Virus record (IMG/VR): IMGVR_UViG_3300012920_000041
Span: 1 to 60,541 of that record
Source of the DNA: a virus
Lineage: Duplodnaviria; Caudoviricetes
DNA: 60,541 nt
Reading direction: 5' to 3' (one strand)
Shown here: positions 1,467 through 60,305 of the stretch, piece by piece
Layout: each line of letters starts with the position of its first letter
Numbering within the stretch: position 1 is the stretch's first letter
Notes under the pieces: generated by a model
What the model was told of the DNA's origin: nothing
The model's database searches: none
Seen by the model: only the letters and a program-made list of their open reading frames with translations
Made by a program: the position numbers and the translations under genes

Positions 1467-2080
1467 ACCGGAAAATGCAATATTTAAATCGCAACCGAAT
1501 CATTTATAGAAGAAACCCGATAAACGATAAGCCTACCGCGTCATTTGATTGGGGTTCATTTTATAAAAATGGAACTTATGAATACTATAGTTTATTTTTT
1601 AGTGACGCAAAAATTAATACAATTAAATCATTATTATGGCATTTATATGTTTTATTATATTTAAACCCTAATTTAAACAAACAAAAATTTAAAGAGTTAG
1701 TTAAGTATATTACAAACAAATCAAATAATTTTATTACTTTTACTTTATCTAATGAAAAAATTAATAGTATTATAGAAGATACTTTAAAATTAAATTTAGA
1801 TAAGCCACCTAAAAATAAGCTAAGAAAGATTATTTTTAATGACTATAGCCTGCTAAGTAAGCATGAAAAACTTAAGATAGTAGGTCAAATGATAGGGCGA
1901 CAAAAACTATCATTAGATAAAATATATGATGCAATGTTATTAATTAATAGTGTAAATAATAAAATTACTATTAAAAGCTTAGCATCTTATTTCAGCTGTT
2001 CAACGCGGACTATACATAGAAATATAAATAGTCAGCTAAGAGCAGAGATTAAAAAACTAAATGAAAAAATACAATGTTAA
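1460..2080 (+). CDS. HTH DNA-binding protein, possible replication initiator (PriCT-like region plus C-terminal HTH)
   Basis: C-terminal ITIKSLASYFSCSTRTIHRN is a clear HTH; central N..F.....L..EKI.SII resembles PriCT; initiator role is inference. Confidence 0.55.
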   Translation: MSHRKMQYLNRNRIIYRRNPINDKPTASFDWGSFYKNGTYEYYSLFFSDAKINTIKSLLWHLYVLLYLNPNLNKQKFKELVKYITNKSNNFITFTLSNEKINSIIEDTLKLNLDKPPKNKLRKIIFNDYSLLSKHEKLKIVGQMIGRQKLSLDKIYDAMLLINSVNNKITIKSLASYFSCSTRTIHRNINSQLRAEIKKLNEKIQC

Positions 2081-2810
2081 AAACTATATTAGATATAAGA
2101 CAGATTTACGAGACTCAATGCCAAAGCAAAAAGAGTTTGAAGACTATACTCGTGATGAACTTATTATTAAGTTTTTACCACTTGTAGAAAACATTGCACA
2201 TAAATTTTCAACTATGCAGCAAGCATCTGGCGTATTAGACATTACTGATTTAATCCAAGAAGGAGCAAAAGGTTTAACGATTGCTGTAGATAAAATTGAA
2301 TGGATAACTATTAAAACAAGTGATGACTCAGAAAAAACTTTAAAATCTTTTTTAAGTAAAAGAATTAAGGGAGCAATAAGAAGAGCTATTGATATTGCAC
2401 GTGGACATATTAGAATACCAGAGCATAAATTAAATGAAATGCGACAAAATCCTGAGAACACTAAAATGGTAGAAATGTTTTTTAATAGTATATTTTTAAG
2501 TATCGACGAGCAAGTTGAAAATGAAAATAATAATTTTGATACTATACCTGATCAGTCTGAACCATATAATATTGAATTATTAAATTTATATTTAAAAGGA
2601 TTATTAAAAAAGCATTTAAATAAAAAAGAATACGAAGTTTTAAGATTATCATATGGCTTAGATTGTAATAAACATACTGCAAATCAAATTGCTGCAATAA
2701 TGAATATTGAAGGACCAAGTGCATATGTTCGTATAAGTGAAATAAAAAAGAATGCTGTAAACAAGCTTATAAATAATGTTAGCCACTCTCAAGTATTAGA
2801 TTATCTTTAG
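2061..2810 (+). CDS. RNA polymerase sigma70-family factor
   Basis: Region 2 FLPLVENIAHKF...DLIQEGAKGL..AVDK...RIKGAIRRAID...IRIP; region 4 EYEVLRLSYGL...TANQIA...RISEIKKNAVNKL. Confidence 0.92.
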   Translation: MKKYNVKNYIRYKTDLRDSMPKQKEFEDYTRDELIIKFLPLVENIAHKFSTMQQASGVLDITDLIQEGAKGLTIAVDKIEWITIKTSDDSEKTLKSFLSKRIKGAIRRAIDIARGHIRIPEHKLNEMRQNPENTKMVEMFFNSIFLSIDEQVENENNNFDTIPDQSEPYNIELLNLYLKGLLKKHLNKKEYEVLRLSYGLDCNKHTANQIAAIMNIEGPSAYVRISEIKKNAVNKLINNVSHSQVLDYL

Positions 2811-10256: not shown

Positions 10257-11994
10257 CGATTGGATAAAAGGAAAAGACTATCCTGCTTGGGGTGATACAG
10301 AAGTATATAAAAAAACAATTGCCGGAGGGTATTTAGTTTATGATGAAACACCTCGTGATGCTTATATGCGAGTTGCTAAAACAGTAGCTAGAAGATTATA
10401 TAAACCAGAACTAGCAGATAAATTTTTTCAATATATATGGGATGGGTGGTTATGTTTAGCCTCTCCTGTTTTATCTAATACAGGAACTGATAGGGGATTA
10501 CCTATAAGTTGTTTTGGGATTGATGTTGCGGATAGTGTACATGATATAGGAAAAAAAAATTTAGAAATGATGATACTTGCTAAGCATGGCGGGGGAGTAG
10601 GTATCGGAATTAATATGATTAGACCCGCAGGATCAAAAATTACAGGTAATGGAACTTCAGATGGCGTTGTTCCTTTTTGTAAAATATATGACTCAACTAT
10701 CCTCGCAACCAACCAAGGTTCAGTTAGGAGAGGAGCTGCAAGCGTTAATATAAATATTGAACACAATGACTTCCTTGAGTGGCTTGAAATTAGAGAACCA
10801 AAAGGTGACGTTAACAGACAGTCTCTTAACCTCCATCAGTGTGCTGTTGTTGGTGATAAATTTATGCGAAAATTACAAGCAGGAAATTCAGACGCAAGAA
10901 CAAAATGGTCAAAGCTTATTCAAAAACGTAAAGCAACTGGAGAGCCTTATATCTTATTCAAAGGAAATACAAACAAAAATAATCCAGAAGCATATAAAAA
11001 AAATAGTTTAAAGGTACATATGACAAACATATGTAGTGAAATAGTATTACATACAGATGAATCACATAGCTTCGTGTGTTGTTTATCATCTGTCAATTTA
11101 GATAAATATAATGAATGGAAGAATACGAATTTAATTTACGACGCGACTTGGTTCCTAGACGGTGTGCTAGAAGAATTTATTCAAAAGGCGAAGAATATGA
11201 AGGGATTCGAGAACTCTGTACGGAGTGCAGAGAAAGGTCGCGCACTTGGACTGGGTGTCCTTGGGTGGCACAGTCTATTACAAAAAAGCGGTATAGCTTT
11301 CGAAAGCTTATTAGCTCAATACAAAACGCGGGAAATTTTTTCAAAACTAAAATTAGAAACTGAACGAGCGTCTAGAGCATTAGCCGAAACATACGGGGAA
11401 CCATTATGGTGTGTAGGAACAGGGATGCGTAATACTCATTTACGAGCTATTGCTCCAACGGTTTCAAATAGCAAATTAGCCGGTAATGTATCGCCAGGAA
11501 TTGAACCATGGGCTGCTAATGTTTTTACAGATCAATCTGCTAAAGGAACTTTTATTAGAAAAAATAAAGAATTAAAAAAACTTTTAAGAAAGGTAGGAAT
11601 CGACACTAAAGAAACATGGGATAAAATCCTTGAAGATGGTGGTTCTATTCAAGATATTAAGGAACTTGATGAATGGTATTACGATAACTTAGGCAAATTA
11701 ACTAATGAAAAAGAAAATAATGAGCCTGCAAAAAATGTATTTAAAACATTTAAAGAAATAAATCAATTAGAGCTTGTTCGACAAGCTGGTATTAGACAAG
11801 ATTATATTGATCAGGCAGTAAGTTTAAATTTAGCTTTTCCCTCTGTAGCTACACCAAGATGGATAAATAATGTACATATTGAGGCGTGGAAAAGAGGTAT
11901 AAAAACTTTATATTATACTAGAACAGAATCAGTACTTAGAGGAGATATAGCGGCTAAAGCTATGGATCCTGATTGTGTAAGTTGTGATGGTTAA
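10246..11994 (+). CDS. nrdA: Ribonucleotide reductase class I alpha subunit (no ATP cone)
   Basis: PISCF, GGGVG, RRGA, TNICSEI, CCLSS, LGLGVLG, AIAPT, KTLYY, C-terminal CVSC. Confidence 0.95.
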   Translation: MWNNDWIKGKDYPAWGDTEVYKKTIAGGYLVYDETPRDAYMRVAKTVARRLYKPELADKFFQYIWDGWLCLASPVLSNTGTDRGLPISCFGIDVADSVHDIGKKNLEMMILAKHGGGVGIGINMIRPAGSKITGNGTSDGVVPFCKIYDSTILATNQGSVRRGAASVNINIEHNDFLEWLEIREPKGDVNRQSLNLHQCAVVGDKFMRKLQAGNSDARTKWSKLIQKRKATGEPYILFKGNTNKNNPEAYKKNSLKVHMTNICSEIVLHTDESHSFVCCLSSVNLDKYNEWKNTNLIYDATWFLDGVLEEFIQKAKNMKGFENSVRSAEKGRALGLGVLGWHSLLQKSGIAFESLLAQYKTREIFSKLKLETERASRALAETYGEPLWCVGTGMRNTHLRAIAPTVSNSKLAGNVSPGIEPWAANVFTDQSAKGTFIRKNKELKKLLRKVGIDTKETWDKILEDGGSIQDIKELDEWYYDNLGKLTNEKENNEPAKNVFKTFKEINQLELVRQAGIRQDYIDQAVSLNLAFPSVATPRWINNVHIEAWKRGIKTLYYTRTESVLRGDIAAKAMDPDCVSCDG

Positions 11995-14375: not shown

Positions 14376-17300
14376 TTATTCTTCTATTACAAAATTATCT
14401 TCTATTACAAAATTATCATCTTCTATTACAAAATCATCTGTATTTTTATTTTTTGATTTTTTATCAATCCCTAATTCCCAATCTGACCAACCAAAAAGTA
14501 ATGCAGCTTGTTGCCACGCAGCCACGTCAGATCGAGTCATATTAACAATATTATCTGTTTTTCTTAATAATCTATCTAATGGAATATTTGTAGAAGCTGA
14601 AAGAGCATTTGCACCTGGCATATATAATTCTATATTTAAATAATCCTTTAGCTCTCTTGCCTTTTCAAATCCTTTTACAGCATATTTATATTGATCTCCA
14701 GCTCTAACTAATTTTTTTACTTTACTTTGAACAGGAGGTGAAATACCTACAGCTTCTAATGCAAGTACTCTTCCGTATTCTCGTTTATATTCAGCTTTAT
14801 CTGATTCGTCAATTAATTTTAATATAATATTTTTACCTGTAGCCACTCCAGCACCTGCAAAACCTAGTCCTCTTAAAAAACCATCCGCCATACCATTAGC
14901 TATTCGTAAATATTTTTTTTCTTTTTCTTTATCTGTTGGCTCTTCGTCATCAAAAGCAAAAGCAAATAAAGCGTTTTGTAATGCATTAAATATTAAATTT
15001 TGTACAACAGTATAATAAATAGCTTTAGATATATTTTCTATACGGCTACCACGGTTGTTTACAGCATCCGAGAGAGCTTTTTTAGTTAATCTAGCATATT
15101 GAGCCGGTGTATTAGCAAAAGCTAATATAAAGCGCCCTAATGGGCCTGCTTGCTGCGCGCTAATTCTATCAGGCCTACTAGATTGTTGTGCTTCTTCTGC
15201 AATTTCTCTAAAATCTAAAAATGCTTTTTCTTGCGCTTTCTTTTCAGATAAACCTTCTTTTTTATATTTATTTAATCTATTTCTATAAAATGTAGCACCT
15301 CCAGACGCAATTGCAAAACTATCAGCAAATTGCGTAGGTAAAAATCCGTATTGAAGCATTTTACTTATTACTCCTCTTGCACCACCTTCTTTTGCCATAT
15401 CGGCTATATCAGATTCGCTAACATTAAATCTTAAACCGCCACGTCTTTCTTTTAAGAAATCAGAATTAAATAAAAACATAAAGTCAGACCAATATTGTTT
15501 TTGATTACTAAAAGCTTTAGCCGCTTTAAATACATTATTATCAGAATAATTAATAAAGTTTATATTAGATATAGTTTGTAATAAAGCAGATCGGCTATTA
15601 AAAAACATAATTGCTCCAACTGAGTTATTAATCCAATCTGTAAATCTACCTGTAATTTCATCTTTATTATAACCACGATTTCTTCCCGTCTTCATTCGGG
15701 TTAAAATATTTTCTAATGCTTTTCTATATCCCGTACCATATACCGCTTGAAGTTTATTTAAATTATCTTTAGAAAATATAATATCTACATTTTGTTGCCA
15801 TTGTTGTAGCGCTTCTGCACGGCGAGTTGTATTAATAGCATTTATTAAATCTGTAGTAATAGTACCTGCTTCCCACCCCACATCAGGCTCAGGATAACCT
15901 TTGCCTTTATTTATATTAATTAAATTATTTGCAAATACAACTAGTTCATTATTATCAGCTACATAAGATATTAATTCACGAACATCAGCATCTTCAAGTC
16001 CTGGAACTTCCATGCCTTGCTTATTCCATATATAAGCGCGCACAGCTTGTTCTACAGTAAAATCATCGCCTGGTATTTTTTTACGTAAATTTTTAGGTAT
16101 AATTTTTAAATCTTTTTTTAATGTTTTATAATCTTCGAACAATGCTACCCTAGCCGAAGATATTTCATTCATAGCTCTAGCGTACGGATCTAATAAATTC
16201 TCTTTATACCAAGCCATTTGTTGCTCGCCAAGCTTTCCTTTGCCTAGAGTATTATATAATAATCCAACAAAGTCTTCTGCCGACGGCGGTATAAAAAACT
16301 TAAACCTTCCTTTATTAGCACCAACTGTTTTGGCTCTAGCATCACCGTATTTTTTTTCTTTAGCAATACCAGTTTTATTTTCAATTATTATGTTAAAATC
16401 CTGACTAAGTTTTTCGGTATCAAAAAATTCTTTACGTCTTTGTTTTATTTCCTCATCAAGTAATTTCATTTCATTTAAAACTGCTTGATTTGAACTTCCC
16501 TTTTTAAGTTGTTTACTTTTAGGTAATTTACTATTATTTTTAGCAGCTGCCTTCTTTTTTGAAAATGCTAGCTGTTTTAGTTCTTGACTTTCATTTTTAA
16601 TTTTAGAATCATAAGCTACATATATTGTTTCATTTAAATCAAAATTATCTTGAAAAGTATAACTATCCCAACCTAATTCTTTTGAAAATTTTGAAAGTAA
16701 TGCTTCATATAATTTTTTTCTACTTTCTCCTTTGCCAGTAAAAGTTACCGAATTAAATTTTTTATCTTTTATTAAATCAATTGTAGCATTAGCAACAACA
16801 CTAAATACCTTAATTGCATTTGTTTCTCCAGCCAAACTTGCACCTGTTGCTCTTACGCTGCCTTCCTCATCTTGAAATAATAATGTAATTGATTTAGGAT
16901 CTGTAATAAAAAAATCATCAGGAATGTCCTCTGTTGATTCTAAAATTTCATACTGTATATCATTATCATTAGATGTTGTAGTAATTTGATAATTAATATT
17001 TCCAATTTTAAAATTATATTTTTGAAATTGTTCATCACCAAATCTAGAATTTATTTCCCAATTACCATCTCCTTTTGTATTAAAACTAAAAAGTAAATCA
17101 TCGCCTACACCAGCTCTTAAATCAGTTTGTTGAGTTTTAGAAACTTTTTGAATTTCTGGTCCTTGAATTCTTACTTCTTGATTAGTTCCAGTTCTACCTA
17201 AAATATTAAGAATACCTTTTGCTGTTTGCGCTTCAGGGTCTCGTGGGCCTTTTGTTAGTTTATTATTTATAATTCCTACTGCCTCTAAAAGATCTTCATC

Positions 17301-20300
17301 TTTAATATTTTTATTTTTTTCATAAGGAACTAAACCGGCACCTTTTGTAGTTCTATCTAATCTTGTATATAATTTAGGATTTTTTAATAATTTATTAGGA
17401 ACATTAGTTGCTGTACCAATTAATTTTTCTGTTACAGCCTCACCTTTTAATATTGCTGCTTGCGGCAATGCTAACTTAATTGTTTTAACATTATTTTTTA
17501 TTAAATTTTGTACTCTTGAAAATTCATCTTGAGTAAAATTAGCTGCGCCCGTTAGCTTTTTAGCAGGCATGTTTAATTTTTTTGCAATAGTTTCCGCCAT
17601 TAAATTAGGCAGCGTTTTAAAAGTTAATTGTTCTTCCGTAATATTAGGAAGTTCTTCTTTTACTTTTTCTTTAAATTGTTTTTGTTCTTCAGGTAAAAGA
17701 ATTTTTTCAGCTATTTTAATTTTTGGCAATTCTTCTTGAACAAAAGTTTCAACAACCTCGGGTTCTGCTGCTTGTGTTTCTGCTATTTGTACATCAGCTA
17801 TATCTGTAGTAAACTCTTCTCCTAAAACTTTTTTAGATGCAGCAATAACTCTTTTAGGTAATAAACTATTTATATATGCGGCTAATGGAACTCCTGAATC
17901 TTTTTTATAACTTCTAATTAAATCAAATATACCGCCTTCGCCAGTTTCTATTTCGCTTACTAATTCTTCTTCATTATAATTAGGAGCATTTTTTCTTTTA
18001 CGTGCTAAGTTTAAAGTTATAGGCTTGAACTCTTGAATTATTTCAAAAGCTGCATTATCAGCGCCTTTTTCCTCATATAATTTTTGTACTAATTCTGATG
18101 CTTTTTTTGACATTACAATTTCATCAGCTTGTATTTCTTCAGGAACTAATTTTAAAACATTTTTAGATAATTCGCCTTGTTTAATATTTTGAGAATAATT
18201 ACGCATAAAATTATATACGTCTTTACCTGTCTTAAATTTATTTTTATATCCTTTAGAGCCAAAAATTTTTTGTAAAAAATCTTTTATTTTAGTAAATATT
18301 GTTTCGTTATAATTAACTTTACCTTCTAAAATTGCATTACTAAATTGAGTTAAAAATTCATCGGGGTTATTTTGCATGTACGCTTCATCATACGCGGGTT
18401 CATCTTTAATTATATTATCTATAATTTTTGAATTTTCTTCGCCTACGATAGTTTTAAACTCTTGTATTAAACTTTTACCTTTATCTTTAGCAGTTTTAAA
18501 TTGATTTTTTAAAATTACATGTAATAACTCGTGCTGCGCAACATCTATATCCCCTGTTTCAACCGCTATTTCTTCATTAATATATATTTTATTATCCGCT
18601 GGGTTTACAAAAGCTCCTGCTGTTAAAGCCTCTTTATTTGTAATATTATATTTATTTTTTAATTCTTCACTATTTTTTACTCGAATAATATTTTTTCCTT
18701 TAATAGCTTTAGTAATAGTTCCTGTTTGAGCGTCTAAGGCTAAGACATTTAATCTTTTATTTATATTTTTTAATTCTTCTTTCAAAGGCTGATTTAAGCC
18801 TTCGTTGTTTTGCTCTTTAATTTGGTTTGTTAAAGCGTTACCTCTTTTTAATAATTCAACAACTTCAACTTTTTGTGTGTTATTAAAAGCTATATTTTTT
18901 ATTTGATTAGTCGCTTGCTGTGTTGCTCTAAAATTTAATTTTATTTCTTCTCCTTTTGTTTTAGTTATTCTACCTCCTAAAACTTCTCTATTAACTTTAT
19001 CATCTAAAATTTTATCTGCTCCTTTAATTTGTGCTATCTTTACCTGAGCCTGATCTGTAGCATTTATTGGATCAAATGCATAACTAATATTTGTATATTC
19101 GGTTGGTTTTAAATCTTTATTGATTTTAGATAAAACTATTGCATCTTTAATACCACTCCTAATTTTTGCAATATTTATAGGGGCTCCATATGCACCTCCA
19201 CCGGCAACACCTAAAATAAAAGCATTACTTACACCTTCAAAAGGGTCTTTATTATTAATTAAATTTTGTGTAATCTGTGTTGCTACTTCTTCTGTGCCTT
19301 CGCCAACCATAGCCACAGGAATACCTAATTTTTTTAAAGCTGTTTCATAAGATTCGACTAGCCAATTTTTAAATACCCTTTGGCCAACCTCAGGGCCTTC
19401 TCTAAATATAATATCTTTATATACATTTCCTATAGCGCCAGCCCCCATTAAACTTTCAAAAAAACCTTCAGCCGCTGCCATACCTAATCCTTTTAGTGTA
19501 TTTATAGCTTCAGCTTGCTCAGGATTTTCAATTGCTTGCTGTCGAGCCTCAGTGCCTCCTAAAAGTGTTGTTGTACCAACAGTCATCCCTAGCCTACCAA
19601 GCCCAGCAACACCCCCGGCCATAATAGCAGCAGTTGTAGGCAAACTTTGAGCTAATTGCCCTGCAGTTACTAAAGCTGCTTTTTTATATCCTTCTGGTGT
19701 ACCATCTAAATTTTCTAGTATATCATTTTGTAAATTTTTTTGTTGTTCAAAATTTTGTACTTTTTTTAAACGGTCTTCTCTTTCTTCTATTAATGATTCA
19801 ATTATAGGTTGAGCATTAATTTTTTCATTAAATTCTTTCGTTGACCACATAGGCGGCAAATCCATCAACTCATTAATTTTTTGAGCCGCAACACCTATAG
19901 CACTATAATCTTTAGTAACGCCATATAAAAATCCAGGAATACTAAAAATTGCTTCTCCTAAAGATAAATCACCCACCTTTAATAGTTCAGATAAATAATC
20001 TGTATTATCATTTATGGTTCGGTCCTCATCTTTTTTTAATTTAATTCTTTCTAAATCTTGTTGTCTAACTTTTTTTCTTACACTAGTTTTTGGTAAGTCC
20101 AAAGAAATATTTTCCAAAACGGAATCCGTACCTTCGAGCACTGGCATTGGCTCCTTCACAGCTGTGCTCTCTTTCTCCTGTGAAGGGTTTGTCTTTCCCA
20201 ATTCTGTAATTTCATTTTCATCTAATAAAACCGCATTGGGATATAGTATTTTAAATCTAGCTACACGATCAGTAGGTAAATCATAAGTAATACCGTTAGC

Positions 20301-20315
20301 TTTATATAGTGGCAT
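14376..20315 (-). CDS. Giant multidomain internal virion/ejection protein with zincin HExxH motif and sigma70-like module
   Basis: 1979 aa, last of three genes after the tail genes; HELLH at 18519-18533; sigma region 2-like segment about 17821-18053. Confidence 0.7.
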   Translation of the reverse strand: MPLYKANGITYDLPTDRVARFKILYPNAVLLDENEITELGKTNPSQEKESTAVKEPMPVLEGTDSVLENISLDLPKTSVRKKVRQQDLERIKLKKDEDRTINDNTDYLSELLKVGDLSLGEAIFSIPGFLYGVTKDYSAIGVAAQKINELMDLPPMWSTKEFNEKINAQPIIESLIEEREDRLKKVQNFEQQKNLQNDILENLDGTPEGYKKAALVTAGQLAQSLPTTAAIMAGGVAGLGRLGMTVGTTTLLGGTEARQQAIENPEQAEAINTLKGLGMAAAEGFFESLMGAGAIGNVYKDIIFREGPEVGQRVFKNWLVESYETALKKLGIPVAMVGEGTEEVATQITQNLINNKDPFEGVSNAFILGVAGGGAYGAPINIAKIRSGIKDAIVLSKINKDLKPTEYTNISYAFDPINATDQAQVKIAQIKGADKILDDKVNREVLGGRITKTKGEEIKLNFRATQQATNQIKNIAFNNTQKVEVVELLKRGNALTNQIKEQNNEGLNQPLKEELKNINKRLNVLALDAQTGTITKAIKGKNIIRVKNSEELKNKYNITNKEALTAGAFVNPADNKIYINEEIAVETGDIDVAQHELLHVILKNQFKTAKDKGKSLIQEFKTIVGEENSKIIDNIIKDEPAYDEAYMQNNPDEFLTQFSNAILEGKVNYNETIFTKIKDFLQKIFGSKGYKNKFKTGKDVYNFMRNYSQNIKQGELSKNVLKLVPEEIQADEIVMSKKASELVQKLYEEKGADNAAFEIIQEFKPITLNLARKRKNAPNYNEEELVSEIETGEGGIFDLIRSYKKDSGVPLAAYINSLLPKRVIAASKKVLGEEFTTDIADVQIAETQAAEPEVVETFVQEELPKIKIAEKILLPEEQKQFKEKVKEELPNITEEQLTFKTLPNLMAETIAKKLNMPAKKLTGAANFTQDEFSRVQNLIKNNVKTIKLALPQAAILKGEAVTEKLIGTATNVPNKLLKNPKLYTRLDRTTKGAGLVPYEKNKNIKDEDLLEAVGIINNKLTKGPRDPEAQTAKGILNILGRTGTNQEVRIQGPEIQKVSKTQQTDLRAGVGDDLLFSFNTKGDGNWEINSRFGDEQFQKYNFKIGNINYQITTTSNDNDIQYEILESTEDIPDDFFITDPKSITLLFQDEEGSVRATGASLAGETNAIKVFSVVANATIDLIKDKKFNSVTFTGKGESRKKLYEALLSKFSKELGWDSYTFQDNFDLNETIYVAYDSKIKNESQELKQLAFSKKKAAAKNNSKLPKSKQLKKGSSNQAVLNEMKLLDEEIKQRRKEFFDTEKLSQDFNIIIENKTGIAKEKKYGDARAKTVGANKGRFKFFIPPSAEDFVGLLYNTLGKGKLGEQQMAWYKENLLDPYARAMNEISSARVALFEDYKTLKKDLKIIPKNLRKKIPGDDFTVEQAVRAYIWNKQGMEVPGLEDADVRELISYVADNNELVVFANNLININKGKGYPEPDVGWEAGTITTDLINAINTTRRAEALQQWQQNVDIIFSKDNLNKLQAVYGTGYRKALENILTRMKTGRNRGYNKDEITGRFTDWINNSVGAIMFFNSRSALLQTISNINFINYSDNNVFKAAKAFSNQKQYWSDFMFLFNSDFLKERRGGLRFNVSESDIADMAKEGGARGVISKMLQYGFLPTQFADSFAIASGGATFYRNRLNKYKKEGLSEKKAQEKAFLDFREIAEEAQQSSRPDRISAQQAGPLGRFILAFANTPAQYARLTKKALSDAVNNRGSRIENISKAIYYTVVQNLIFNALQNALFAFAFDDEEPTDKEKEKKYLRIANGMADGFLRGLGFAGAGVATGKNIILKLIDESDKAEYKREYGRVLALEAVGISPPVQSKVKKLVRAGDQYKYAVKGFEKARELKDYLNIELYMPGANALSASTNIPLDRLLRKTDNIVNMTRSDVAAWQQAALLFGWSDWELGIDKKSKNKNTDDFVIEDDNFVIEDNFVIEE
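14381..14438. repeat. Three-copy tandem repeat (TTCTATTACAAAATTATC) encoding the acidic D(N/D)FVIE tail
   Basis: Seen directly; protein ends DDFVIEDDNFVIEDNFVIEE. Confidence 0.85.
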
Positions 20316-22748: not shown

Positions 22749-24278
22749 TCAATAAGATGCTACGTTATATTGTGAAGATACAGCAAATATTTCTTTCATA
22801 CCTCCTGGATCTGTGTTGGTATCAGTTGATATTGTTACAGTAGTAAAATATCCTTTTATACCAGTCATTTGATTGCCAAATCTAACTTCACCTACTGTTG
22901 CTGGGCTATTATTAATTATATTGGCAAAATATTTATTTTCTTTGCGATCAAACCCTGCTCTATTAATAGGGGGTGTCATAGTTGCAGGAAATTGATTACC
23001 AAAATTATCATATGCTCCCTCATTATAGCTATATATTAAAGCAGTACTATCGCTTGTATTAGACTTATCAAAATTATCTCCTGTTGAAGTTGTTTCCCAA
23101 CCTGTATCTATAGAGCCTATACCTGTTTTATCTGATATAATGTTGTCAACTTGCCAACCATTGCTACCTTCGTAATTAATAGTTTTAAATACTTTTGAAG
23201 CACTTACTTGTGGATTAAATATAAATTTAATAGTAGCTTTATATTGTGTGCCATAAAAATTAGCTCTATTTACTAATTCACTATTATGTCTATATAGTTC
23301 TGCTTTTTTATTTGAACTTGTGCCATTATTAAAAGTATAAAAAATATTTTTTAAACTAGTACCCATAGCTGGTTTATAACTATAAAAACTTGTCCATCCT
23401 TTTACCGATTCATCAAAAGAAACAGTATAATAATTAGTTGTTATATTTTCGCCTAAAGGGCCGAGTGTATATGATTGATTTGGTTGCAATGAAACTACGT
23501 ATTGTTTAGTATGTATATCCCACATACCAAAAGCTCTACCCACTCCATATTGACTATCAAGTCCACTAAGTTTATCACGAAAAAAATCATACATACCATA
23601 GCGTTGTATTTCTTCTAAACCATCTCTTGATAATCTCATTACTGCATTACGATCTTTGTCTGTAAAATATTTTCTAAATCCATATACCGCAAAGCTTTCT
23701 GGATTACGACTTATACCAAATTCGCCTAAATATCCTTGGGGCTCTCCAATAACCATGTTGCTCGCAGTTATAGACGGATTGCCTTCAGCTGTATAAATAA
23801 CATTTTTATTTATTGGAGCGCGGCTTACTTTATCCTCTTGAAATATATTTAAATAATAATCTTCAGCATATAATTTTTGTATTGTGCCTTTAGCTGGATC
23901 TAAACTTCTAGTTATATCCTCTCCAACACTAAAAACATTACTTTCATTTATACCAGTTGTAGAATTAAATATACCTGAATATATTAAAGCATGGCCTCTA
24001 AATCTAGCATTAGGTTCTTCTTCAACTAAATAAGCTCTAGGGCCATATGTAACACTTGTATTATTATATCCACCGCGTATACGAGATTCTTCTAGCATCC
24101 AATTACGGGTTTCATTATTTGTTTCAGGCGTTATATTTCCATAAGCGCTAACACCAGTTTCTCCTGGATTATAATTTGGTATACCATATGATCCATTCCA
24201 AACAGGTGTATTACTAGAATTTACAACTTTTTTTAAAACAAAGCTGTTAAAGTATCGAACTTCTACAATTGCACTCAT
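22749..24278 (-). CDS. Tail nozzle/stabilisation-type structural protein
   Basis: GEFGISRNPESFA...YFTD...RLS.DG, WTSFYSY, KVFKTINYEG; beta-propeller-like; tail position. Confidence 0.6.
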   Translation of the reverse strand: MSAIVEVRYFNSFVLKKVVNSSNTPVWNGSYGIPNYNPGETGVSAYGNITPETNNETRNWMLEESRIRGGYNNTSVTYGPRAYLVEEEPNARFRGHALIYSGIFNSTTGINESNVFSVGEDITRSLDPAKGTIQKLYAEDYYLNIFQEDKVSRAPINKNVIYTAEGNPSITASNMVIGEPQGYLGEFGISRNPESFAVYGFRKYFTDKDRNAVMRLSRDGLEEIQRYGMYDFFRDKLSGLDSQYGVGRAFGMWDIHTKQYVVSLQPNQSYTLGPLGENITTNYYTVSFDESVKGWTSFYSYKPAMGTSLKNIFYTFNNGTSSNKKAELYRHNSELVNRANFYGTQYKATIKFIFNPQVSASKVFKTINYEGSNGWQVDNIISDKTGIGSIDTGWETTSTGDNFDKSNTSDSTALIYSYNEGAYDNFGNQFPATMTPPINRAGFDRKENKYFANIINNSPATVGEVRFGNQMTGIKGYFTTVTISTDTNTDPGGMKEIFAVSSQYNVASY

Positions 24279-24312: not shown

Positions 24313-27300
24313 CTACGGCATAGCTTGTGATGGAACAGCTGTAGCTTTTTGTTTTAAACCACTTGCATCAAAGTATGCTGACCATATTCTATATGGTTGT
24401 AACTCTAACAAGGTATTACCGTAGTTTTGTTGTAATATGTTAGTACCAGACTTACTTACATTAGCTACTTGATTCCCATCATATTGAGGATATAAATCAG
24501 AGCCAGTCAATATATTGTAACCTCTCCACGCGGTTGATACACTCCAGCTGGGTGGCGTCCATGTAGTTGTTAAAGCTGCGTCTGTATAAAATTGTGTTAC
24601 ATATTTTAAAAAAGGTTCTCTTGCCCATACGGTTTGTTTCCCCCCTGATATAGCTAATTGGCTTGCGTCTTTAGCGTTATTAGATCCAGTTGTCGTTACT
24701 TGGTAAGCATATGAAGTTATACTAGGATTAGTTCTTGTATATGGGTAATACATGTCTCCCCAATCAATATTGTAAGAAAAGAACGACGAATTAGCATAAT
24801 TGCTATTAGGTAACTGCCCACCTTGTTTAACGCTATTGGGCCACCCGGGCACAATAGGCACTTGATTAAAACCTTGATTACCTCTACCCCAGGGGTATCT
24901 TATTATAAATCTATAATCGCCAAACCTATCAACTTCATCTGTATATATTTTGTTGCTATCTTTAGTTGCTGCACCTCCTACACAAAATAATTTTTTTCCT
25001 TGGGTTGCTAAATATTCTTGGTTGCTTTGATATATTGTATTTACATTTAACTGTACACAGTCCGCGCTACTTATATTGTTTGTAGTACTTGGATCATTTA
25101 CATAATTACTACTAAAGTTACTAGCTAAATTATTTTTTCTTAATCTACCCTCATAAGATAATGCTTGATTTGAATTAATAGGATAAACATTATAATCACT
25201 ATAATTGTTACCAAATGTAGCCCCAAATCTTATTTCTTGGCCTTCTATATCTTTAGCAATTTCCCAAGCATTAGGTGCTGCACCGGCTGGTCTATATTGT
25301 AAAGTAACAGGGAACATAACTTGTAATTCCTCTGTGTTTGCGTTATTATATGTATATTCTTCTATAGCATCATTGTCTATAGTTACATCAAATAATACAT
25401 ATCCAGTACCACGAGTCAAGCCTCCGTCTGCTTGTGTTACTGTTTGTGTTGCGCTACCAATAGCATTATAATTGCTATTAGCATAATCATAGGATATTCC
25501 ACCTGCTGTTTTGCTTATTGTTTTTGTTTCTATATAATTTCCTGATGTAGGTAATGTACTGTTTAAAACTAAATTATTACCATTTGACAAAGCATACGCG
25601 TTCATTGTCCTATCTAAAATAGGATTAACATTAGCTCCTGTATCCACTGCGTTTGTTGCGTCACTAGTCCAATAAATTGCTAATGAAGAACCTCCTGCAG
25701 CTAATAACGATTCTTGTGCTATATTAGCTCCTCTGCCCCAACCTGCATTTACTGCTGCATTACCAAATATAACATCTGTTGTAAAAGAATCAGTTAATTC
25801 GCCGGCGTCTTTAACTTGTATTGTTAAAGTATTTATACCGGCAGGTGTTCCAGATACTGTAATTTCTCCTGTTACACTATCAATGCTAAACTCATTGCTT
25901 GTAGGTTGAGATGTAATACTATATTCTAAATCTTTTTTATTAACCGGAGTATCCTCGCCTACTAATGTTTGTGTGTCTGCACTTCCATTGACAGAACTAA
26001 ATAAACTATTGTTTGCGTTTATACTTGTTTGTCCGACTTGTGTTGTTATTGATGACGGTTTAGGACTTATAATTGGTGCTACATTTTGTAACGCACCTGT
26101 TGAAGTTAAGGTTGCGCCGTCATTGTCGTATGTAAATTCATATTGATCTATTACATTTGAATTTAAACCATAGTAAAAAAGTCTAGCGGTTGTTAATGTG
26201 TAATTATCATATGTTGCTGGATTATTTTTATCTAATGGTTGACCATTGTTTGTGCTTTTAATTAAATTAAAATATGGCCCACTATCACCTTCTTGTATAA
26301 TTTCATTATTACCATTTCTAATATTAACTATTGTTAAATTAGAGACTTGTACTGGGCTATCATTGTTAGCAGCTGAAGCTGTTGATTGCACGGCAAATTG
26401 ATTTACAACTGTTGTGCTTAATGCCATGCCTTCATTTAAACTAAAGCTATAATTAAATAAACCTGTAGCTAAACCTTGGTTACCTGAAGTAATAGCTGTA
26501 TTTAACTCTGATATAAGGCCAGTTGTAGTTGTTTCATAATAGACATTAAGCAGTGATTCTACGGGTGCAGTTTCAAAAACACCTAATTGAAAAGCATAAC
26601 TTGAACTTGAAGATGTTAAACTACCCATTGGGTTGGATGCTATTTGTACAAACTTAGCTATTAATGGATCTGAGTTTGAATTATATAAGTCTGTAGCAGC
26701 CGAAGCAGTAATGCCAAACATATCACTTATTGTACCAATAGTAGTTACATTATTATCTAAACTAGTAAAGGTCGATGTGTTAGGATAAAAAGGTATATTA
26801 TATGTAGGTGTAGCAGAATTTTCAGGTGTAACTCTACCAAATAATTCTACACTACTTCTTGAAACCATTAAAGTTTCGTTACCTTCACTAAACTCATCTT
26901 CAGAAGATCTAAATTGTTTTTGATCTGGTCCTACTAATGATAAATCTCTTGGTATTTTGTTTATGTTATCACTAAACAATGTTACAAACCCTACTTGCCC
27001 AGCAACATCATCTAAATTAGTTACTGTATTAGGAGGGCCATCCATTATACCTGGTGAATAAACATTGTAATATTCTTGTTCAGTTTGTTTTATTACAATT
27101 TTAAATGAGTACCAACCTAAAGGATTATAATCTGATGACCCAGTATTACCATTATATAAACCAGGAGCACCAGAGCTTAATGATTTAGCACTTGATATTT
27201 GATCATTAAACAATAATTTTATTGAATCACCTTTAAGTGTTGATATTGGTAAAGATGTTGCTTCATCAGTTGTTCTATAGTTATGATAAACAGTTGCAGC

Positions 27301-58600: not shown

Positions 58601-58632
58601 TGCAAAAAAAATACGCTATCTATATGATAATA
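58601..58632 (+). promoter_or_regulatory. Early promoter-like motif copy
   Basis: TGCAAAAAAAATACG-N10-GATAATA. Confidence 0.75.
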
Positions 58633-58648
58633 ATATAAAATAGAAATT

Positions 58649-58798
58649 ATGAGAATACATGCAATCAAAGACTGGGAAGTTAAAGGATCAATAGTACAAG
58701 GAATGTGGGAGCTGTGGACTAAACGAGGAAGCACCTGGTATTTGCACGAAGTGAGTAAGGACATGAGCGATCTGATTAAAATAGCCAAGACGCTTTAA
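58649..58798 (+). CDS. Small early protein (49 aa, not in ORF track)
   Basis: MRIHAIKDWEVKGSIVQGMWELWTKRG..., directly after the motif. Confidence 0.6.
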   Translation: MRIHAIKDWEVKGSIVQGMWELWTKRGSTWYLHEVSKDMSDLIKIAKTL

Positions 58799-58846
58799 AC
58801 CTCACGCCTCCGGCCGACCTCACTATCTGCGACCGAGGCGAAGCCT

Positions 58847-58878
58847 TGCAAAAAAAATACGCAACTGCTTCGATAATA
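58847..58878 (+). promoter_or_regulatory. Early promoter-like motif copy
   Basis: TGCAAAAAAAATACG-N10-GATAATA. Confidence 0.75.
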
Positions 58879-58919
58879 GCATAAAACCTCACGACCCCAT
58901 CGGGGGCTTGAAGAGGCCT

Positions 58920-58951
58920 TACAAAAAAAATACGTTCTTAGTATGATAATA
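58920..58951 (+). promoter_or_regulatory. Early promoter-like motif copy
   Basis: TACAAAAAAAATACG-N10-GATAATA. Confidence 0.75.
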
Positions 58952-58974
58952 TAATAAACTTTAAAACTAAAATT

Positions 58975-59124
58975 ATGAAAGAATACAATTTATTAAACGA
59001 AAAATTACAAAATAACACTATTACTAAATTAGAAAAGAAAAGACTGTTTCAGTTAGCATTTGGAAATGAATTTATGAATTCAAACGATAAAGGAACTTTA
59101 AAAGAGTACAAAGTTGCAAAATAA
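58975..59124 (+). CDS. Small early protein (49 aa, not in ORF track)
   Basis: MKEYNLLNEKLQNNTITKLEKKRLFQLAFG... Confidence 0.6.
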   Translation: MKEYNLLNEKLQNNTITKLEKKRLFQLAFGNEFMNSNDKGTLKEYKVAK

Positions 59125-59146
59125 ATACGTTACTTAACTGATAATA
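59115..59146 (+). promoter_or_regulatory. Early promoter-like motif copy
   Basis: TGCAAAATAAATACG-N10-GATAATA. Confidence 0.75.
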
Positions 59147-59244
59147 TAATAAAGTAAAATGAAAAATCATTTAATGCACATACATATAAATGATTACACC
59201 AGTAACCTAAAATAAATATACAAACTAATTAACACCTTTAAACG

Positions 59245-59442
59245 ATGAAAAACATCACTGAACCTCAAACAATTATAATTAATCAACCTGTCTTAGACCA
59301 AAGAATGGACAGAGCAAGCAAAATAGGTAAAGCAATGGCAAGATTAATCATACTTAAAACGATGTTAGATTATGATGATACAACCACAATTAAGACCTAT
59401 ATAGATGAAATTTATGACCAACTTGATAAAATAAAACTCTAA
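59245..59442 (+). CDS. Small early protein
   Basis: 65-aa ORF. Confidence 0.6.
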   Translation: MKNITEPQTIIINQPVLDQRMDRASKIGKAMARLIILKTMLDYDDTTTIKTYIDEIYDQLDKIKL

Positions 59443-59446
59443 TAAA

Positions 59447-59623
59447 ATGGCAATGACACAACAAGAAATAAACAGACAACAATCACGAGATATGTTGTTG
59501 GAAGCAAAAGTTGCTATACACACACTAGAAGAGCTAGGCCCAGATTATGCAATTTGGCAAAACGCAAAAGCAAGTTACAAGGCTTTAAAACAAATTAAAA
59601 AACAATTAAAATTAATAGGGTAA
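59447..59623 (+). CDS. Small early protein (58 aa, not in ORF track)
   Basis: MAMTQQEINRQQSRDMLLEAK...; TAATG coupling to the next ORF. Confidence 0.6.
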   Translation: MAMTQQEINRQQSRDMLLEAKVAIHTLEELGPDYAIWQNAKASYKALKQIKKQLKLIG

Positions 59624-59799
59624 TGAAACCATTTAAATATTTAACAGTACTAGATTTTGAGCAAGGAGACGTTTGTCAATACCCAGTAGGCCATGGGTCT
59701 ATAGACCATGAAGATATTGAAGAGAAAATAACTGAATTAGGTCACAACCTTACAAATTGTGAATGGATGTTACATAAAAACAAACCAATAATACATTAA
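59623..59799 (+). CDS. Small early protein (58 aa, not in ORF track)
   Basis: MKPFKYLTVLDFEQGDVCQY...NCEWM. Confidence 0.6.
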   Translation: MKPFKYLTVLDFEQGDVCQYPVGHGSIDHEDIEEKITELGHNLTNCEWMLHKNKPIIH

Positions 59800-59803
59800 C
59801 ATT

Positions 59804-59974
59804 ATGAAAAAACTAGAATATTTATCAGACCAAGAAATTGATATTTTATATTATGCTTTAAAAGCAAATATCAAAACCAGAGCACGAGTAAAATCCTTAA
59901 GTGATTTAACCGACGAAGACAAGTACAGTTTTAAAGAATCATTAAACCTTTTAGAAGAATTATCTAAACTTTAA
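59804..59974 (+). CDS. Small early protein (56 aa, not in ORF track)
   Basis: MKKLEYLSDQEIDILYYALK... Confidence 0.55.
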   Translation: MKKLEYLSDQEIDILYYALKANIKTRARVKSLSDLTDEDKYSFKESLNLLEELSKL

Positions 59975-59985
59975 AAAATACTTAG

Positions 59986-60300
59986 ATGAAAAATAAAGAC
60001 ACTTACAACGGTTGGAAGAACTATGAGACCTGGAAGGTCCAGCATGAAGTCTTAGGGCCATATGAGCACTATACAGAGGACTTAACAACCAGTTATCTTA
60101 TGCCCAATACAAACCATTATACTGACAAGGATTTAATCCAGGTCATAGCTACACGGTTAATGATAGATGTTGAAAATTTTATAAATGAAAGCCCAAAGGT
60201 TTGGAGCAATATGAATATTGATAAATATAATGATATTGATTTTTATGAAATTGCCACGCTAATGTTAGAGGATTACAAAACTAATACGATAGTCGATTGA
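59986..60300 (+). CDS. Early protein
   Basis: YNGWKNYETW N-terminal motif, IDFYEIA. Confidence 0.7.
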   Translation: MKNKDTYNGWKNYETWKVQHEVLGPYEHYTEDLTTSYLMPNTNHYTDKDLIQVIATRLMIDVENFINESPKVWSNMNIDKYNDIDFYEIATLMLEDYKTNTIVD

Positions 60301-60305
60301 TAATA
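60274..60305 (+). promoter_or_regulatory. Early promoter-like motif copy
   Basis: TACAAAACTAATACG-N10-GATAATA. Confidence 0.7.

What the first reader, a model, noticed from the sequence alone, without database searches (positions are those of the whole stretch)
17085..18533. Sigma70-like module inside the giant ejection protein: candidate virion-injected sigma factor
Seen: residues about 755-832 of the 1979-aa protein (FEIIQEFKPITLNLARKRK...NEEELVSEIETGEGGIFDLIRSYKKDSGVPLAAYINSLLPKRV) follow the sigma70 region 2 pattern (..F.PLV..IAR....EDL...G..GL.....F....G..F..Y....I). A weak HTH-like stretch (MAETIAKKLNMPAKKL, about 17550-17600) follows, and a zincin motif HELLH lies upstream (18519-18533). 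Established: podovirus ejection proteins enter the cell with the DNA, and crAss-like and N4-like phages inject whole RNA polymerases. Inference: this phage may instead inject a sigma factor that redirects host core RNAP to its early promoters. This would explain how the non-host early promoters fire when the stand-alone sigma gene (2061-2810) itself lies downstream of one.
Basis: partly seen in the sequence, partly recalled or inferred. Interest (0 to 1): 0.9.

Follow-up and report, generated by a model that had tools for sequence, protein, structure and literature searches.

The report
Sigma-like domain inside giant phage protein

Summary
The quoted peptides and HELLH lie where stated in a 1979-aa ORF (14376-20315, minus) of a 98%-complete phage record. 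Residues 737-832 are a sigma-70 domain-2 look-alike. The evidence: an AlphaFold2 model with pLDDT 87; Foldseek lists made almost wholly of sigma factors (best E 0.055 PDB, 0.011 viral, none <=0.001); 25 of 30 ESM Atlas neighbours in the Sigma70_r2 set; in-register profile alignments (P 2e-4 to 8e-4).

Sequence membership fails. Pfam gives nothing for this protein, and only 2 of 20 diverged relatives score, below threshold. No region 4 was found, and the "HTH-like" stretch is no better than chance.

A fold with Flavobacterium beta-prime clamp helices gave only weak support (0.59; best control 0.04).

Against the injected-sigma reading: ACG-N10-GATAATA and the stand-alone sigma (63-66% identical) are conserved in relatives where this module is unrecognisable by tblastn. 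I read it as a sigma2-derived RNA-polymerase-docking module in a probably virion-borne protein. Packaging and binding are untested. The scan noted the same kind of domain in at least seven other phage genomes; I found no paper on it.

The parts
14376..20315 (-). Giant ORF, 1979 aa (P0001), last gene of the virion-module gene string
   Evidence: ORF list and translation. 2007 homologues with E<=0.001 among 8000 scored candidates, mostly 2100-2600 aa on contigs of about 60 kb. No Pfam, PHROG, NCBIfam or PDB-sequence match.
18111..18608 (-). Zincin-like domain (about aa 570-735) with HELLH at 18519-18533
   Evidence: H, E and H of HExxH and a Glu 54 residues downstream are each kept in >=90% of 46 sequences. 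A single HExxH stands at the matching place in 38 of 39 further loci. No Pfam peptidase family matched.
17820..18107 (-). Sigma70 domain-2-like domain (aa 737-832: region 1.2-like helix plus 2.1-2.4-like helices)
   Evidence: AF2 pLDDT 87.3. Foldseek PDB and BFVD lists are dominated by sigma factors. ESM Atlas 25 of 30 hits in the Sigma70_r2 set. hhalign P 2e-4 to 8.4e-4. Tyr814 aligns with E. coli RpoD Tyr430.
17718..17819 (-). Acidic, predicted disordered linker (aa 833-866; 10 D/E, 1 K/R)
   Evidence: pLDDT 24-35 in the 522-aa model; composition.
17085..17717 (-). Conserved domain of unknown function (aa 867-1077), ending in the conserved G-K-G-S-x-L-L-F-S motif. It contains the 'HTH-like' stretch 17553-17600.
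   Evidence: Alignment A2, including invariant T, L, Y, R, N and R positions. Boundary motif. No family found.
16587..17084 (-). Variable insert (aa 1078-1243)
   Evidence: Only 17-26 of 120 homologues align here by BLASTP. Some homologues carry a sub-threshold or just-passing DUF6934 match here.
14451..16586 (-). Highly conserved C-terminal module (aa 1244-1955) with two Gly/Ala-rich hydrophobic segments
   Evidence: Aligned in 120 of 120 homologues at about 60% identity. Hydrophobic segments at aa 1770-1788 and 1817-1835. Weak match to Tenacibaculum phage Gundel_1 'structural protein'.
2061..2810 (+). Stand-alone sigma-70-family gene (249 aa): context for the interpretation, not part of the giant protein
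   Evidence: NCBIfam TIGR02937 46.4 bits against a cut-off of 42.9. Pfam r2 and r4 below cut-off. At least 64% identity in the best 80 of 433 viral loci.
58613..60305 (+). Cluster of five exact ACG-N10-GATAATA promoter-like motifs (58613, 58859, 58932, 59127, 60286). Further copies lie at 46-65 and, with one mismatch, at 2826-2845.
   Evidence: 15 matches at <=1 mismatch against 5.4 expected; 0 of 100 shuffles reached 15. Extended upstream TTrCAAA..AAT. Same motif in 5 of 5 related genomes.

Best explanation
Residues 737-832 of the giant protein are a highly diverged homologue of domain 2 of sigma-70-family factors, the domain that docks on the beta-prime clamp helices of core RNA polymerase and handles the -10 element. 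It lies between a conserved HExxH zincin-like domain and an acidic linker followed by a conserved domain of unknown function. The whole protein has hydrophobic Gly/Ala-rich segments and is encoded where podoviruses encode their internal, ejected proteins.

My reading is that the protein is packed in the particle and enters with the DNA. There the sigma2-like domain would serve as a docking module for host core RNA polymerase: capturing it, competing with host sigma, or holding it at the entering genome. It would not be the factor that reads the ACG-N10-GATAATA promoters; that role fits the strongly conserved stand-alone sigma.

Shown here (in silico): the fold and the domain order. Inferred: packaging, ejection, polymerase binding and the effect on transcription.
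For: Fold:
- The AF2 model has pLDDT 87.3 and pTM 0.78.
- In Foldseek against PDB, 44 of the 45 listed rows are sigma factors or sigma-sized chains of holoenzymes, with probability 0.72-1.00 and TMq 0.44-0.56. 8b3z_F gave TMt 0.68 and rmsd 2.5 A.
- In Foldseek against BFVD, 28 rows carry a name. Of these, 17 are called sigma factor and 4 'DNA directed RNA polymerase subunit'. One 1475-aa uncultured-virus protein piece gave TMq 0.76.
- The 522-aa model also drew sigma chains in 11 of its first 14 rows.

Language-model neighbours: 25 of 30 in the Sigma70_r2 set, top score 0.97.

Profile comparisons, all in register with regions 2.1-2.4:
- P 8.4e-4 against the phage's own sigma family.
- P 2e-4 and 4.3e-4 against alignments holding E. 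coli RpoD, RpoS, RpoH, FliA and RpoE.
- 13 of 15 seeded sub-alignments placed their best match in the sigma2 columns at P<=0.027. These alignments overlap in members and are not independent.
- Two diverged relatives (L043, L080) have Sigma70_r2 as their top Pfam hit, E 0.019 and 0.031.
- The residues kept most widely, Leu811 and Tyr814, align with RpoD Phe427 and Tyr430.

Polymerase docking: complex prediction with RPOC_FLAJ1 residues 225-375 returned 'weak support', score 0.59 with best of 3 controls 0.04.
- The mark was reached by 58 of 80 solved complexes and 2 of 110 mismatched pairs.
- At 0.60 or under it was reached by only 7 of those 80, and by both mismatches that passed.
- The runs agree in at least 94% of contacts and the partner pLDDT is at least 74.
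- My own alignment was used, and sigma2 with clamp-helix complexes is solved, so the pass may come from memory.

Virion context:
- The gene order is terminase, portal, virion structural proteins, then this gene.
- Elemovirus gp18 (3694 aa) and Gundel_1 gp074 (2482 aa) sit at matching places and are annotated 'structural protein'. They share the zincin and other pieces by local HMM.
- There are four hydrophobic Gly/Ala-rich segments.

Not the promoter reader: the motif and the stand-alone sigma are conserved where this module is not.
Against: - No sequence method reaches significance for sigma membership. Pfam gave 0 families for the whole protein and for the fragment at E up to 10, 0 of 24 family members and 0 of a further 10 diverged segments.
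- The module profile found only 373 proteins at E<=0.001 among 1.84 billion representatives. All 150 listed had E<=7.2e-32, and most are giant proteins or shorter pieces that I did not check. So the profile does not reach cellular sigma factors.
- No Foldseek E-value is <=0.001.
- HH probabilities are 24-72%, not the >90% usually asked for.
- The complex score is in the tool's 'weak' band, and a stand-in host was used because the real host is unknown.
- The cultured relatives with 'structural protein' labels lack a detectable sigma2 module, and I saw no proteomic data for any member.
- The module evolves fast although the beta-prime clamp helices are (from my own knowledge) very conserved, which a plain docking role does not explain.
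Confidence: 0.45

Rival explanations
1. The module (sigma2 plus a cryptic DNA-binding part downstream) is a complete virion-injected sigma factor. It directs host core polymerase to the ACG-N10-GATAATA early promoters and so starts transcription of the early operon, including the stand-alone sigma gene.
For: - The sigma2 fold and the weak docking prediction.
- An acidic disordered linker follows the domain, as in sigma factors (the comparison is from my own knowledge).
- The stand-alone sigma gene lies downstream of a motif copy at 46. In loci L132 and L135-L139 a copy sits 28 nt before its start, so a first-round factor is needed if the motif depends on the phage sigma.
- No TAnnTTTG on the + strand between 56572 and 2531 across the record end.
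- T4 gp55 shows that a sigma2-only protein can select promoters (recalled, not tested).
Against: - No region 3 or 4 by any test.
- The motif is identical in 5 of 5 related genomes (34 copies on the main strand, 1 on the other). In three of those genomes the sigma2-like segment has no tblastn similarity to the window's. Their stand-alone sigma is 63-66% identical and the C-terminal module of the giant protein about 60%. A reading head for an invariant motif should be conserved.
- Positions matching RpoD Trp433, Gln437 and Thr440 are not kept (their roles are recalled).
- Packaging is not shown.
Confidence: 0.12
2. The sigma2 fold has been re-used for something other than RNA polymerase. One possibility is binding single-stranded or end DNA of the phage genome during packaging or entry; another is a purely structural helical spacer of the internal protein.
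For: - The best-conserved stretch in the closer clade (P-L-A-A-Y-I-N-x-x-L-P-x-R, aa 810-822) aligns with region 2.3/2.4, the DNA-handling part, rather than with the region 2.2 core-binding helix.
- The segment diverges fast among relatives.
- The docking prediction is only weak.
Against: - The heptad pattern of region 2.2 (D-x-I-x-x-G-x-x-G-I-x-D-L-I) is kept in register with RpoD 403-416.
- The co-fold score was 0.55 above every control.
- No DNA-binding test was possible.
Confidence: 0.25
3. The resemblance is convergent or due to chance: a small four- or five-helix bundle that structure and language models file under their most common look-alike.
For: - No E-value <=0.001 in any Foldseek search.
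- Pfam found nothing in 42 of 44 segments tested.
- The profile search reached no cellular sigma.
- The Atlas tool states that a third of shuffled proteins also get ten of ten best hits in one family.
Against: - Four methods of different kinds point to the same family and the same register.
- Sigma70_r2 is the top Pfam hit for two independent diverged members, at matching profile positions 21-62 and 16-58 of 71.
- The Atlas tool states that a score of 0.95 or more is reached about once in 100 by shuffled proteins.
Confidence: 0.06

Closest known systems
Domain sigma2 (regions 1.2, 2.1-2.4; Pfam PF04542) of sigma-70-family factors. Nearest rows: SigE N-terminal domain 8b3z, WhiG 6pfv, sigma32 8hkc, RpoS 5h6x/6omf, pro-sigmaK 8vjl.
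   Same: Predicted fold, order of helices, and register of the region 2.2 and 2.3 patterns. Tyr814 aligns with RpoD Tyr430.
   Different: It is embedded at aa 737-832 of a 1979-aa protein of the virion module. It scores below every curated sequence threshold. No region 3 or 4 follows it.
T4 gp55, a late sigma made essentially of a sigma2-like domain (recalled; no call)
   Same: A sigma2-only architecture could still select a -10-like element.
   Different: gp55 is a small free protein made during infection and works with gp33 and the sliding clamp. Here the domain is part of a giant, probably virion-borne protein. No homology test with gp55 was run.
Virion-delivered transcription machinery: N4 vRNAP and the phiKZ virion RNAP (read in passages of PMC4496689's abstract listing and PMC7318152); crAss-like virion RNAP (recalled)
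   Same: The idea of a giant virion protein that brings transcription capacity into the cell with the DNA.
   Different: Those deliver whole polymerases. Here no polymerase domain was found, only a sigma-type docking domain.
Free-standing phage sigma factors: phiEco32 gp36 and SU10 CDS32 (PMC4281155 passages), and this phage's own gene 2061-2810
   Same: A sigma-70-family domain 2 used by a phage to steer host core polymerase.
   Different: Those are complete (r2 plus r4) and are made after entry. SU10's sigma was seen with one peptide (8.4% coverage) in the particle proteomics table, among other middle-gene products. That is no proof of packaging.
Polyvalent proteins of phages and conjugative elements (Iyer et al. 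2017, PMC5512222: search listing only; passages about them in PMC7824862)
   Same: A giant multidomain protein thought to enter with the DNA, carrying a zincin-type peptidase among other modules aimed at the host.
   Different: The search listing shows 0 occurrences of 'sigma' in that paper. I did not read its text or supplements, and none of its marker domains was tested here.
T7 gp16-type internal (ejected) virion proteins (recalled)
   Same: Position at the end of the structural gene string, large size, hydrophobic segments.
   Different: No sequence or fold match was obtained. No lytic transglycosylase domain was found.

Membership tests
Sigma-70 family (domain sigma2, Pfam PF04542 / NCBIfam TIGR02937) | Sequence match to the curated model above its cut-off | tested here: not met
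   P0001 and its fragments gave no Sigma70_r2 hit at E up to 10 and no NCBIfam family. 0 of 24 family members hit it. 2 of 20 diverged relatives hit it at 15.2 and 14.5 bits, against a cut-off of 24.
Sigma-70 family (domain sigma2) | Sigma2 fold: helical bundle of regions 1.2 and 2.1-2.4 | tested here: met
   AF2 pLDDT 87.3 and pTM 0.78. 44 of 45 listed PDB rows and 21 of 28 named BFVD rows are sigma or RNAP-subunit entries, with TMq about 0.5 and TMt 0.68 to an isolated SigE domain. This is a prediction, and no E-value is <=0.001.
Sigma-70 family (domain sigma2) | Profile-profile similarity in register with regions 2.1-2.4 | tested here: inconclusive
   hhalign P 8.4e-4 (probability 24%), 2e-4 (47%) and 4.3e-4 (34%); best seeded alignment 3.3e-5 (72%). 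The register is consistent, but the values are below customary confidence.
Sigma-70 family (functional sigma factor) | Binding of region 2.2 to the beta-prime clamp helices of core RNAP | tested here: inconclusive
   Complex prediction gave 'weak support': 0.59, best of 3 controls 0.04. The mark was reached by 58 of 80 solved complexes and 2 of 110 mismatches, but at <=0.60 by only 7 of the 80 and by both passing mismatches. Contact agreement was >=94% and partner pLDDT >=74. A stand-in host (F. johnsoniae) was used, and similar complexes are solved.
Sigma-70 family (functional sigma factor) | Region 4 (or 3) domain for the -35 element and the beta flap | tested here: not met
   No r3 or r4 in Pfam for the window's 348-aa module fragment and its 23 aligned relatives (0 of 24) or for 10 diverged downstream segments. 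ESM Atlas gave no usable hit for aa 862-962. hhalign to region 4.2 gave P 0.07-0.27. The model has no helix-turn-helix geometry at aa 906-921.
Sigma-70 family (functional sigma factor) | Promoter-specific initiation with core RNAP | not testable with these tools
   This needs in vitro transcription. Indirect evidence points against it for the ACG-N10-GATAATA motif.
Virion-packaged, ejected internal proteins of podoviruses | Presence in purified particles and entry into the host | not testable with these tools
   Only gene position and the GenBank label 'structural protein' on distant relatives, whose basis I could not see.
Zincin metallopeptidases | HExxH plus a third ligand in a conserved fold | tested here: inconclusive
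   HExxH and a downstream Glu are kept in >=90% of 46 sequences. No Pfam or PDB-sequence family matched. In Foldseek of the 522-aa model the only peptidase row was neurolysin, at probability 0.01.
Virion RNA polymerases (N4 vRNAP, crAss-like) | An RNA polymerase catalytic domain in the giant protein | tested here: not met
   No polymerase family in Pfam, PHROGs or NCBIfam, and no PDB-sequence hit.

The most novel reading that the evidence does not exclude
The giant protein is a polyprotein. Cutting at the conserved ...S sites that flank aa 737-1077 (I-K-E-S-R/S-E-E-A-S before it, G-K-G-S-x-L-L-F-S after it) would release a roughly 340-residue sigma-sized factor. The cutter would be its own zincin domain or the head protease. 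The fragment would consist of sigma2, an acidic linker and a new DNA- or flap-binding domain. It would travel in the virion, load onto host core polymerase at entry and fire the first round of the ACG-N10-GATAATA early operon, including the stand-alone sigma gene, before any phage protein is made. That would make it a virion-delivered initiation factor, a third strategy beside host-sigma early promoters and injected polymerases.
Probability: 0.1. Interest if true: 0.9.

Novelty: new variant of a known kind. Interest (0 to 1): 0.62.

Why it matters
Phages are known to take over transcription in two ways. Some make sigma factors or polymerase-binding proteins after entry. Others inject a whole RNA polymerase. 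A sigma-type polymerase-docking domain built into a protein that probably travels in the particle would be a third route, acting before any phage gene is expressed.

The family is large and marine. There are 2007 clusters at 90% identity among the candidates scored, and 373 representatives at 50% identity carry the module. Any function would therefore apply to an abundant group of ocean phages.

It also gives a clean experimental handle. A 96-residue domain can be expressed and tested against Flavobacteriia core polymerase.

Five literature searches found no paper describing a sigma domain inside a virion or ejection protein. Subscription journals and supplements were not covered.

Tried and rejected
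- Direct sequence routes gave nothing for the giant protein: Pfam, PHROGs, NCBIfam, phmmer and a profile against PDB sequences, and tblastn against 50,697 phage records. For the C-terminal module the only hit was a 99-residue match to Tenacibaculum phage Gundel_1.
- A search for free-standing versions of the aa 730-1077 module among proteins of 166-627 aa found 6 proteins. Four were on contigs of 1-1.4 kb or without contig data, and two were short proteins on contigs of 19-20 kb. I took all six for fragments or split calls and did not check them.
- The profile of the sigma2 module against 1.84 billion representatives did not reach cellular sigma factors. Only the best 150 of 373 hits are shown, so the weakest hits could not be inspected.
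- Region 4: rejected.
- I first counted 39 of 80 loci as lacking the module. Reading them showed diverged F-[ND]-P...F-S-T-W-like segments at the same place, and seeded searches joined 42-68 of 72 windows. So '41 of 80' is a lower bound, not a true absence. Ten of these diverged segments gave no Sigma70_r2 hit in Pfam.
- The Elemovirus and Gundel giant proteins share the zincin and other pieces but no sigma2 module by my local HMMs. They cannot serve as cultured stand-ins for this domain.
- A scan for a host-type Bacteroidota promoter (TTG-N17-22-TAnnTTTG) found none in the early region. The host is unknown, so this carries little weight.
The SU10 proteomics supplements, and any proteomics of Cellulophaga or Flavobacterium phages, might bear on packaging.

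Full report
What is there.

The window is a whole virus record of 60,541 bases, rated 98% complete. The finding lies in a 1979-codon ORF on the minus strand, 14376-20315.
- FEIIQEF...RKRK at aa 757-775
- LLPKRV at aa 818-823
- MAETIAKKLNMPAKKL at aa 906-921 (17553-17600)
- HELLH at aa 595-599 (18519-18533)

On the minus strand the gene order is terminase, portal, several PHROG 'virion structural protein' genes including one of 1480 aa, three further ORFs, then this gene as the last of the string. The portal is 42-51% identical to those of Flavobacterium (Elemovirus), Cellulophaga, Tenacibaculum and Maribacter phages. In Elemovirus the same position holds a 3694-aa 'structural protein'.

Family and domain plan.

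The protein has 2007 homologues at E<=0.001 among 8000 scored candidates. Most are 2100-2600 aa, on marine contigs of about 60 kb. BLASTP of the 120 listed hits shows two conserved blocks, aa ~560-1080 and aa ~1240-1955. The second is aligned in all 120 at about 60% identity. Between them lies a variable insert at aa ~1080-1240, aligned in only 17-26 of the 120.

Within the first block I distinguish four parts:
- A zincin-like part. Its HExxH and a Glu 54 residues later are each kept in >=90% of 46 sequences.
- The sigma-like domain, aa 737-832.
- An acidic linker, aa 833-866 (10 D/E, 1 K/R), with pLDDT 24-35.
- A conserved domain of unknown function, aa 867-1077. It ends in a nearly invariant G-K-G-S-x-L-L-F-S, right before the sequences diverge.

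Two Gly/Ala-rich hydrophobic segments lie in the N-terminal third and two in the C-terminal module.

No curated library names any part: Pfam, PHROGs, NCBIfam and PDB sequences all gave nothing.

Is the sigma resemblance real? Four different kinds of test agree.

(a) Structure.
- With a 34-row alignment, AlphaFold2 gives aa 730-845 a confident five-helix model (pLDDT 87.3, pTM 0.78).
- Foldseek against PDB lists 45 rows. By their descriptions, 44 are sigma factors or the sigma-sized chain of RNA polymerase holoenzymes; I did not check each chain. The exception is a cyclophilin at probability 0.16.
- Probabilities are 0.72-1.00 and TMq 0.44-0.56. The isolated SigE N-terminal domain gives TMt 0.68 at 2.5 A.
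- Against predicted viral structures, 17 of the 28 named rows are called sigma factor and 4 'DNA directed RNA polymerase subunit'.
- The larger 522-residue model had already drawn sigma chains in 11 of its first 14 rows.
- No Foldseek E-value reaches 0.001. The best are 0.055 (PDB) and 0.011 (viral).

(b) Language-model neighbours. 25 of 30 Atlas hits belong to the Sigma70_r2 set, with a top score of 0.97 and 172 of 256 shared features.

(c) Profile against profile.
- hhalign puts module positions 26-99 on positions 32-109 of the phage's own sigma family, P 8.4e-4.
- It puts positions 26-91 on E. coli RpoD 375-436, P 2e-4, or 4.3e-4 with E. coli sigmas alone. A less diverse module alignment gave only P 0.034.
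- In this register D-x-I-x-x-G-x-x-G-I-x-D-L-I lies on RpoD 403-416, and the nearly invariant Leu811 and Tyr814 lie on Phe427 and Tyr430.
- Fifteen differently seeded alignments of family windows put their best match in the sigma2 columns in 13 cases at P<=0.027. One did so without significance and one matched elsewhere. Their members overlap, so these are not independent trials.

(d) Pfam on diverged relatives. Two of ten segments (L043, L080) have Sigma70_r2 as their top hit (E 0.019 and 0.031; 15.2 and 14.5 bits against a cut-off of 24), at matching profile positions.

Results that go the other way.
- Pfam finds nothing in the window's own protein, in 24 closer relatives or in ten further diverged segments.
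- A profile of the module searched against 1.84 billion representatives finds only 373 proteins at E<=0.001. All 150 listed have E<=7.2e-32, and most are giant proteins or shorter pieces that I did not check. So HMMER does not connect the module to cellular sigma factors.
- I conclude that this is a sigma2 homologue diverged beyond curated thresholds. It meets the fold criterion and fails the sequence criterion.

Is it a whole sigma factor? No.
- The stretch after the linker gives no sigma region 3 or 4. Pfam found none in the window's module fragment and its 23 aligned relatives, nor in the 350 residues downstream of the domain in ten diverged relatives.
- The Atlas returns no usable hit for aa 862-962.
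- hhalign places the 'HTH-like' MAETIAKK... stretch on region 4.2 of the phage sigma only at P 0.07-0.27.
- In the model that stretch is one short helix followed by about 15 residues of coil.
- By contrast, the stand-alone gene 2061-2810 is a proper sigma-70-family member. It scores 46.4 bits on NCBIfam TIGR02937 against a cut-off of 42.9, and has Pfam r2 and r4 hits just under their cut-offs.

Does it dock on RNA polymerase?

One co-fold of the domain with residues 225-375 of Flavobacterium johnsoniae beta-prime returned 'weak support':
- Score 0.59, best of three controls 0.04.
- The mark was reached by 58 of 80 solved complexes and 2 of 110 mismatched pairs.
- At 0.60 or under it was reached by only 7 of those 80, and by both mismatches that passed.
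- Runs agree in >=94% of contacts and the partner pLDDT is >=74.
- My own alignment was used and the host is a stand-in. Sigma2 with clamp-helix complexes is solved, so the pass may only reflect likeness.

It raises my odds of docking a little. It does not show binding.

Does it read the early promoters?
There are six exact + strand copies (46, 58613, 58859, 58932, 59127, 60286) and a one-mismatch copy at 2826.
- At <=1 mismatch there are 15 matches against 5.4 expected, and none of 100 shuffles reached 15.
- The motif extends upstream as TTrCAAA..AAT-ACG, and an ATG follows within about 15-25 nt in most copies.
- In 24 of 80 small loci around the stand-alone sigma gene of relatives the motif occurs on the gene's strand, and in none on the other strand. 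In L132 and L135-L139 it sits 28 nt before the sigma start codon. So the bootstrapping question is fair.
In 5 of 5 related genomes the exact motif occurs 4-9 times on one strand (34 copies against 1 on the other; reversed-pattern controls 0-1).
- Their stand-alone sigma is 63-76% identical to the window's.
- In three of them (G002, G003, G004) the sigma2-like segment shows no tblastn similarity to the window's, while the C-terminal module of the same protein is about 60% identical in the two whose gene is complete.
- An invariant motif goes with the conserved stand-alone sigma, not with a fast-evolving domain.

Is it in the virion?

This is only inferred. The evidence is gene position, hydrophobic segments and the label 'structural protein' on the giant proteins of Elemovirus and Gundel_1. 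Those proteins share the zincin region and other pieces with this family by my local HMMs (domain E-values 1e-10 to 3e-7 in a two-sequence search) but have no detectable sigma2 module. The Elemovirus paper's passages mention no mass spectrometry (PMC7077304, find mode).

Best reading and odds.
- The fold is real: about 0.9.
- The most likely role is a polymerase-docking module carried by a probably ejected multi-domain protein that also holds a zincin. It would act on host core polymerase at entry by capture, by competition with host sigma, or by holding the enzyme at the incoming DNA. I put this at about 0.45.
- Re-use of the fold for DNA binding or structure: about 0.25.
- Chance: about 0.06.

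Comparison with what is known.

It works like domain 2 of sigma factors. As a sigma2-only unit it recalls T4 gp55 (recalled, not tested). As a delivered transcription tool it recalls the virion polymerases of N4 and phiKZ (passages). It is a member of neither kind of system by the features tested.

Five full-text searches found no description of a sigma domain inside a virion or ejection protein:
- The polyvalent-protein paper has no occurrence of 'sigma' in the search listing.
- The jumbo-phage review mentions ART and GNAT domains, not sigma, in injected polyvalent proteins.
- In phage SU10 the free sigma factor appears with a single peptide in the particle proteomics table, among other middle-gene products (PMC4281155).

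Earlier notes of this scan report the same kind of domain in at least seven other marine phage genomes, and a complete ECF-type sigma inside a gp16-like protein in one other phage. My results on this genome agree with their 'domain 2 only' reading.

Noticed in passing
window 46-65, 2826-2845, 58613-60305 (+); G002-G004, G006, G007: The promoter-like motif TTrCAAA..AAT-ACG-N10-GATAATA is kept exactly, 4-9 copies on one strand, in 5 of 5 related genomes. In loci L132 and L135-L139 it sits 28 nt before the stand-alone sigma gene. Its geometry fits neither the sigma70 spacing nor the Bacteroidota -33/-7 consensus (consensus recalled).
   Followed up: partly
window 2061-2810 (+): The stand-alone sigma is unusually conserved for a phage early gene. 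It is at least 64% identical in the best 80 of 433 viral loci, and all 8000 scored candidates had E<=0.001. The giant protein's sigma2-like module ranges from 91% identity down to undetectable.
   Followed up: partly
window 17085-17110 and 18105-18125 (-); alignment A1: Conserved short motifs ending in Ser stand exactly at the borders of the aa 737-1077 block: I-K-E-S-R/S-E-E-A-S before it and G-K-G-S-x-L-L-F-S after it, the latter directly before the hypervariable insert. These are possible processing sites next to a conserved zincin.
   Followed up: partly
window 16587-17084 (-) and homologues P0006, P0030, P0082: The variable insert differs in kind between relatives. Some carry a DUF6934 (PF22028) match there: 28.1 bits, just over the 27-bit cut-off, in P0030, and 25.9 bits in P0006 and P0082.
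   Followed up: no
window 44213-45766 (-): A phage-encoded GroEL homologue (phrog_5725, E 8e-135). Elemovirus carries GroEL and GroES genes as well.
   Followed up: no
window 22749-24278 and 24313-28755 (-): Two neighbouring genes (509 and 1480 aa) match different parts of one 1474-position PHROG 'virion structural protein' (phrog_14478: positions 942-1231 and 1-183), as if one long gene of relatives were split or partly duplicated here.
   Followed up: no
window 10246-11994 (+), 4397-6112 (+): A ribonucleotide reductase large subunit (phrog_84, E 3e-148) and a primase/DnaB-like fusion (TIGR01391, E 6.5e-13) on the early strand.
   Followed up: no
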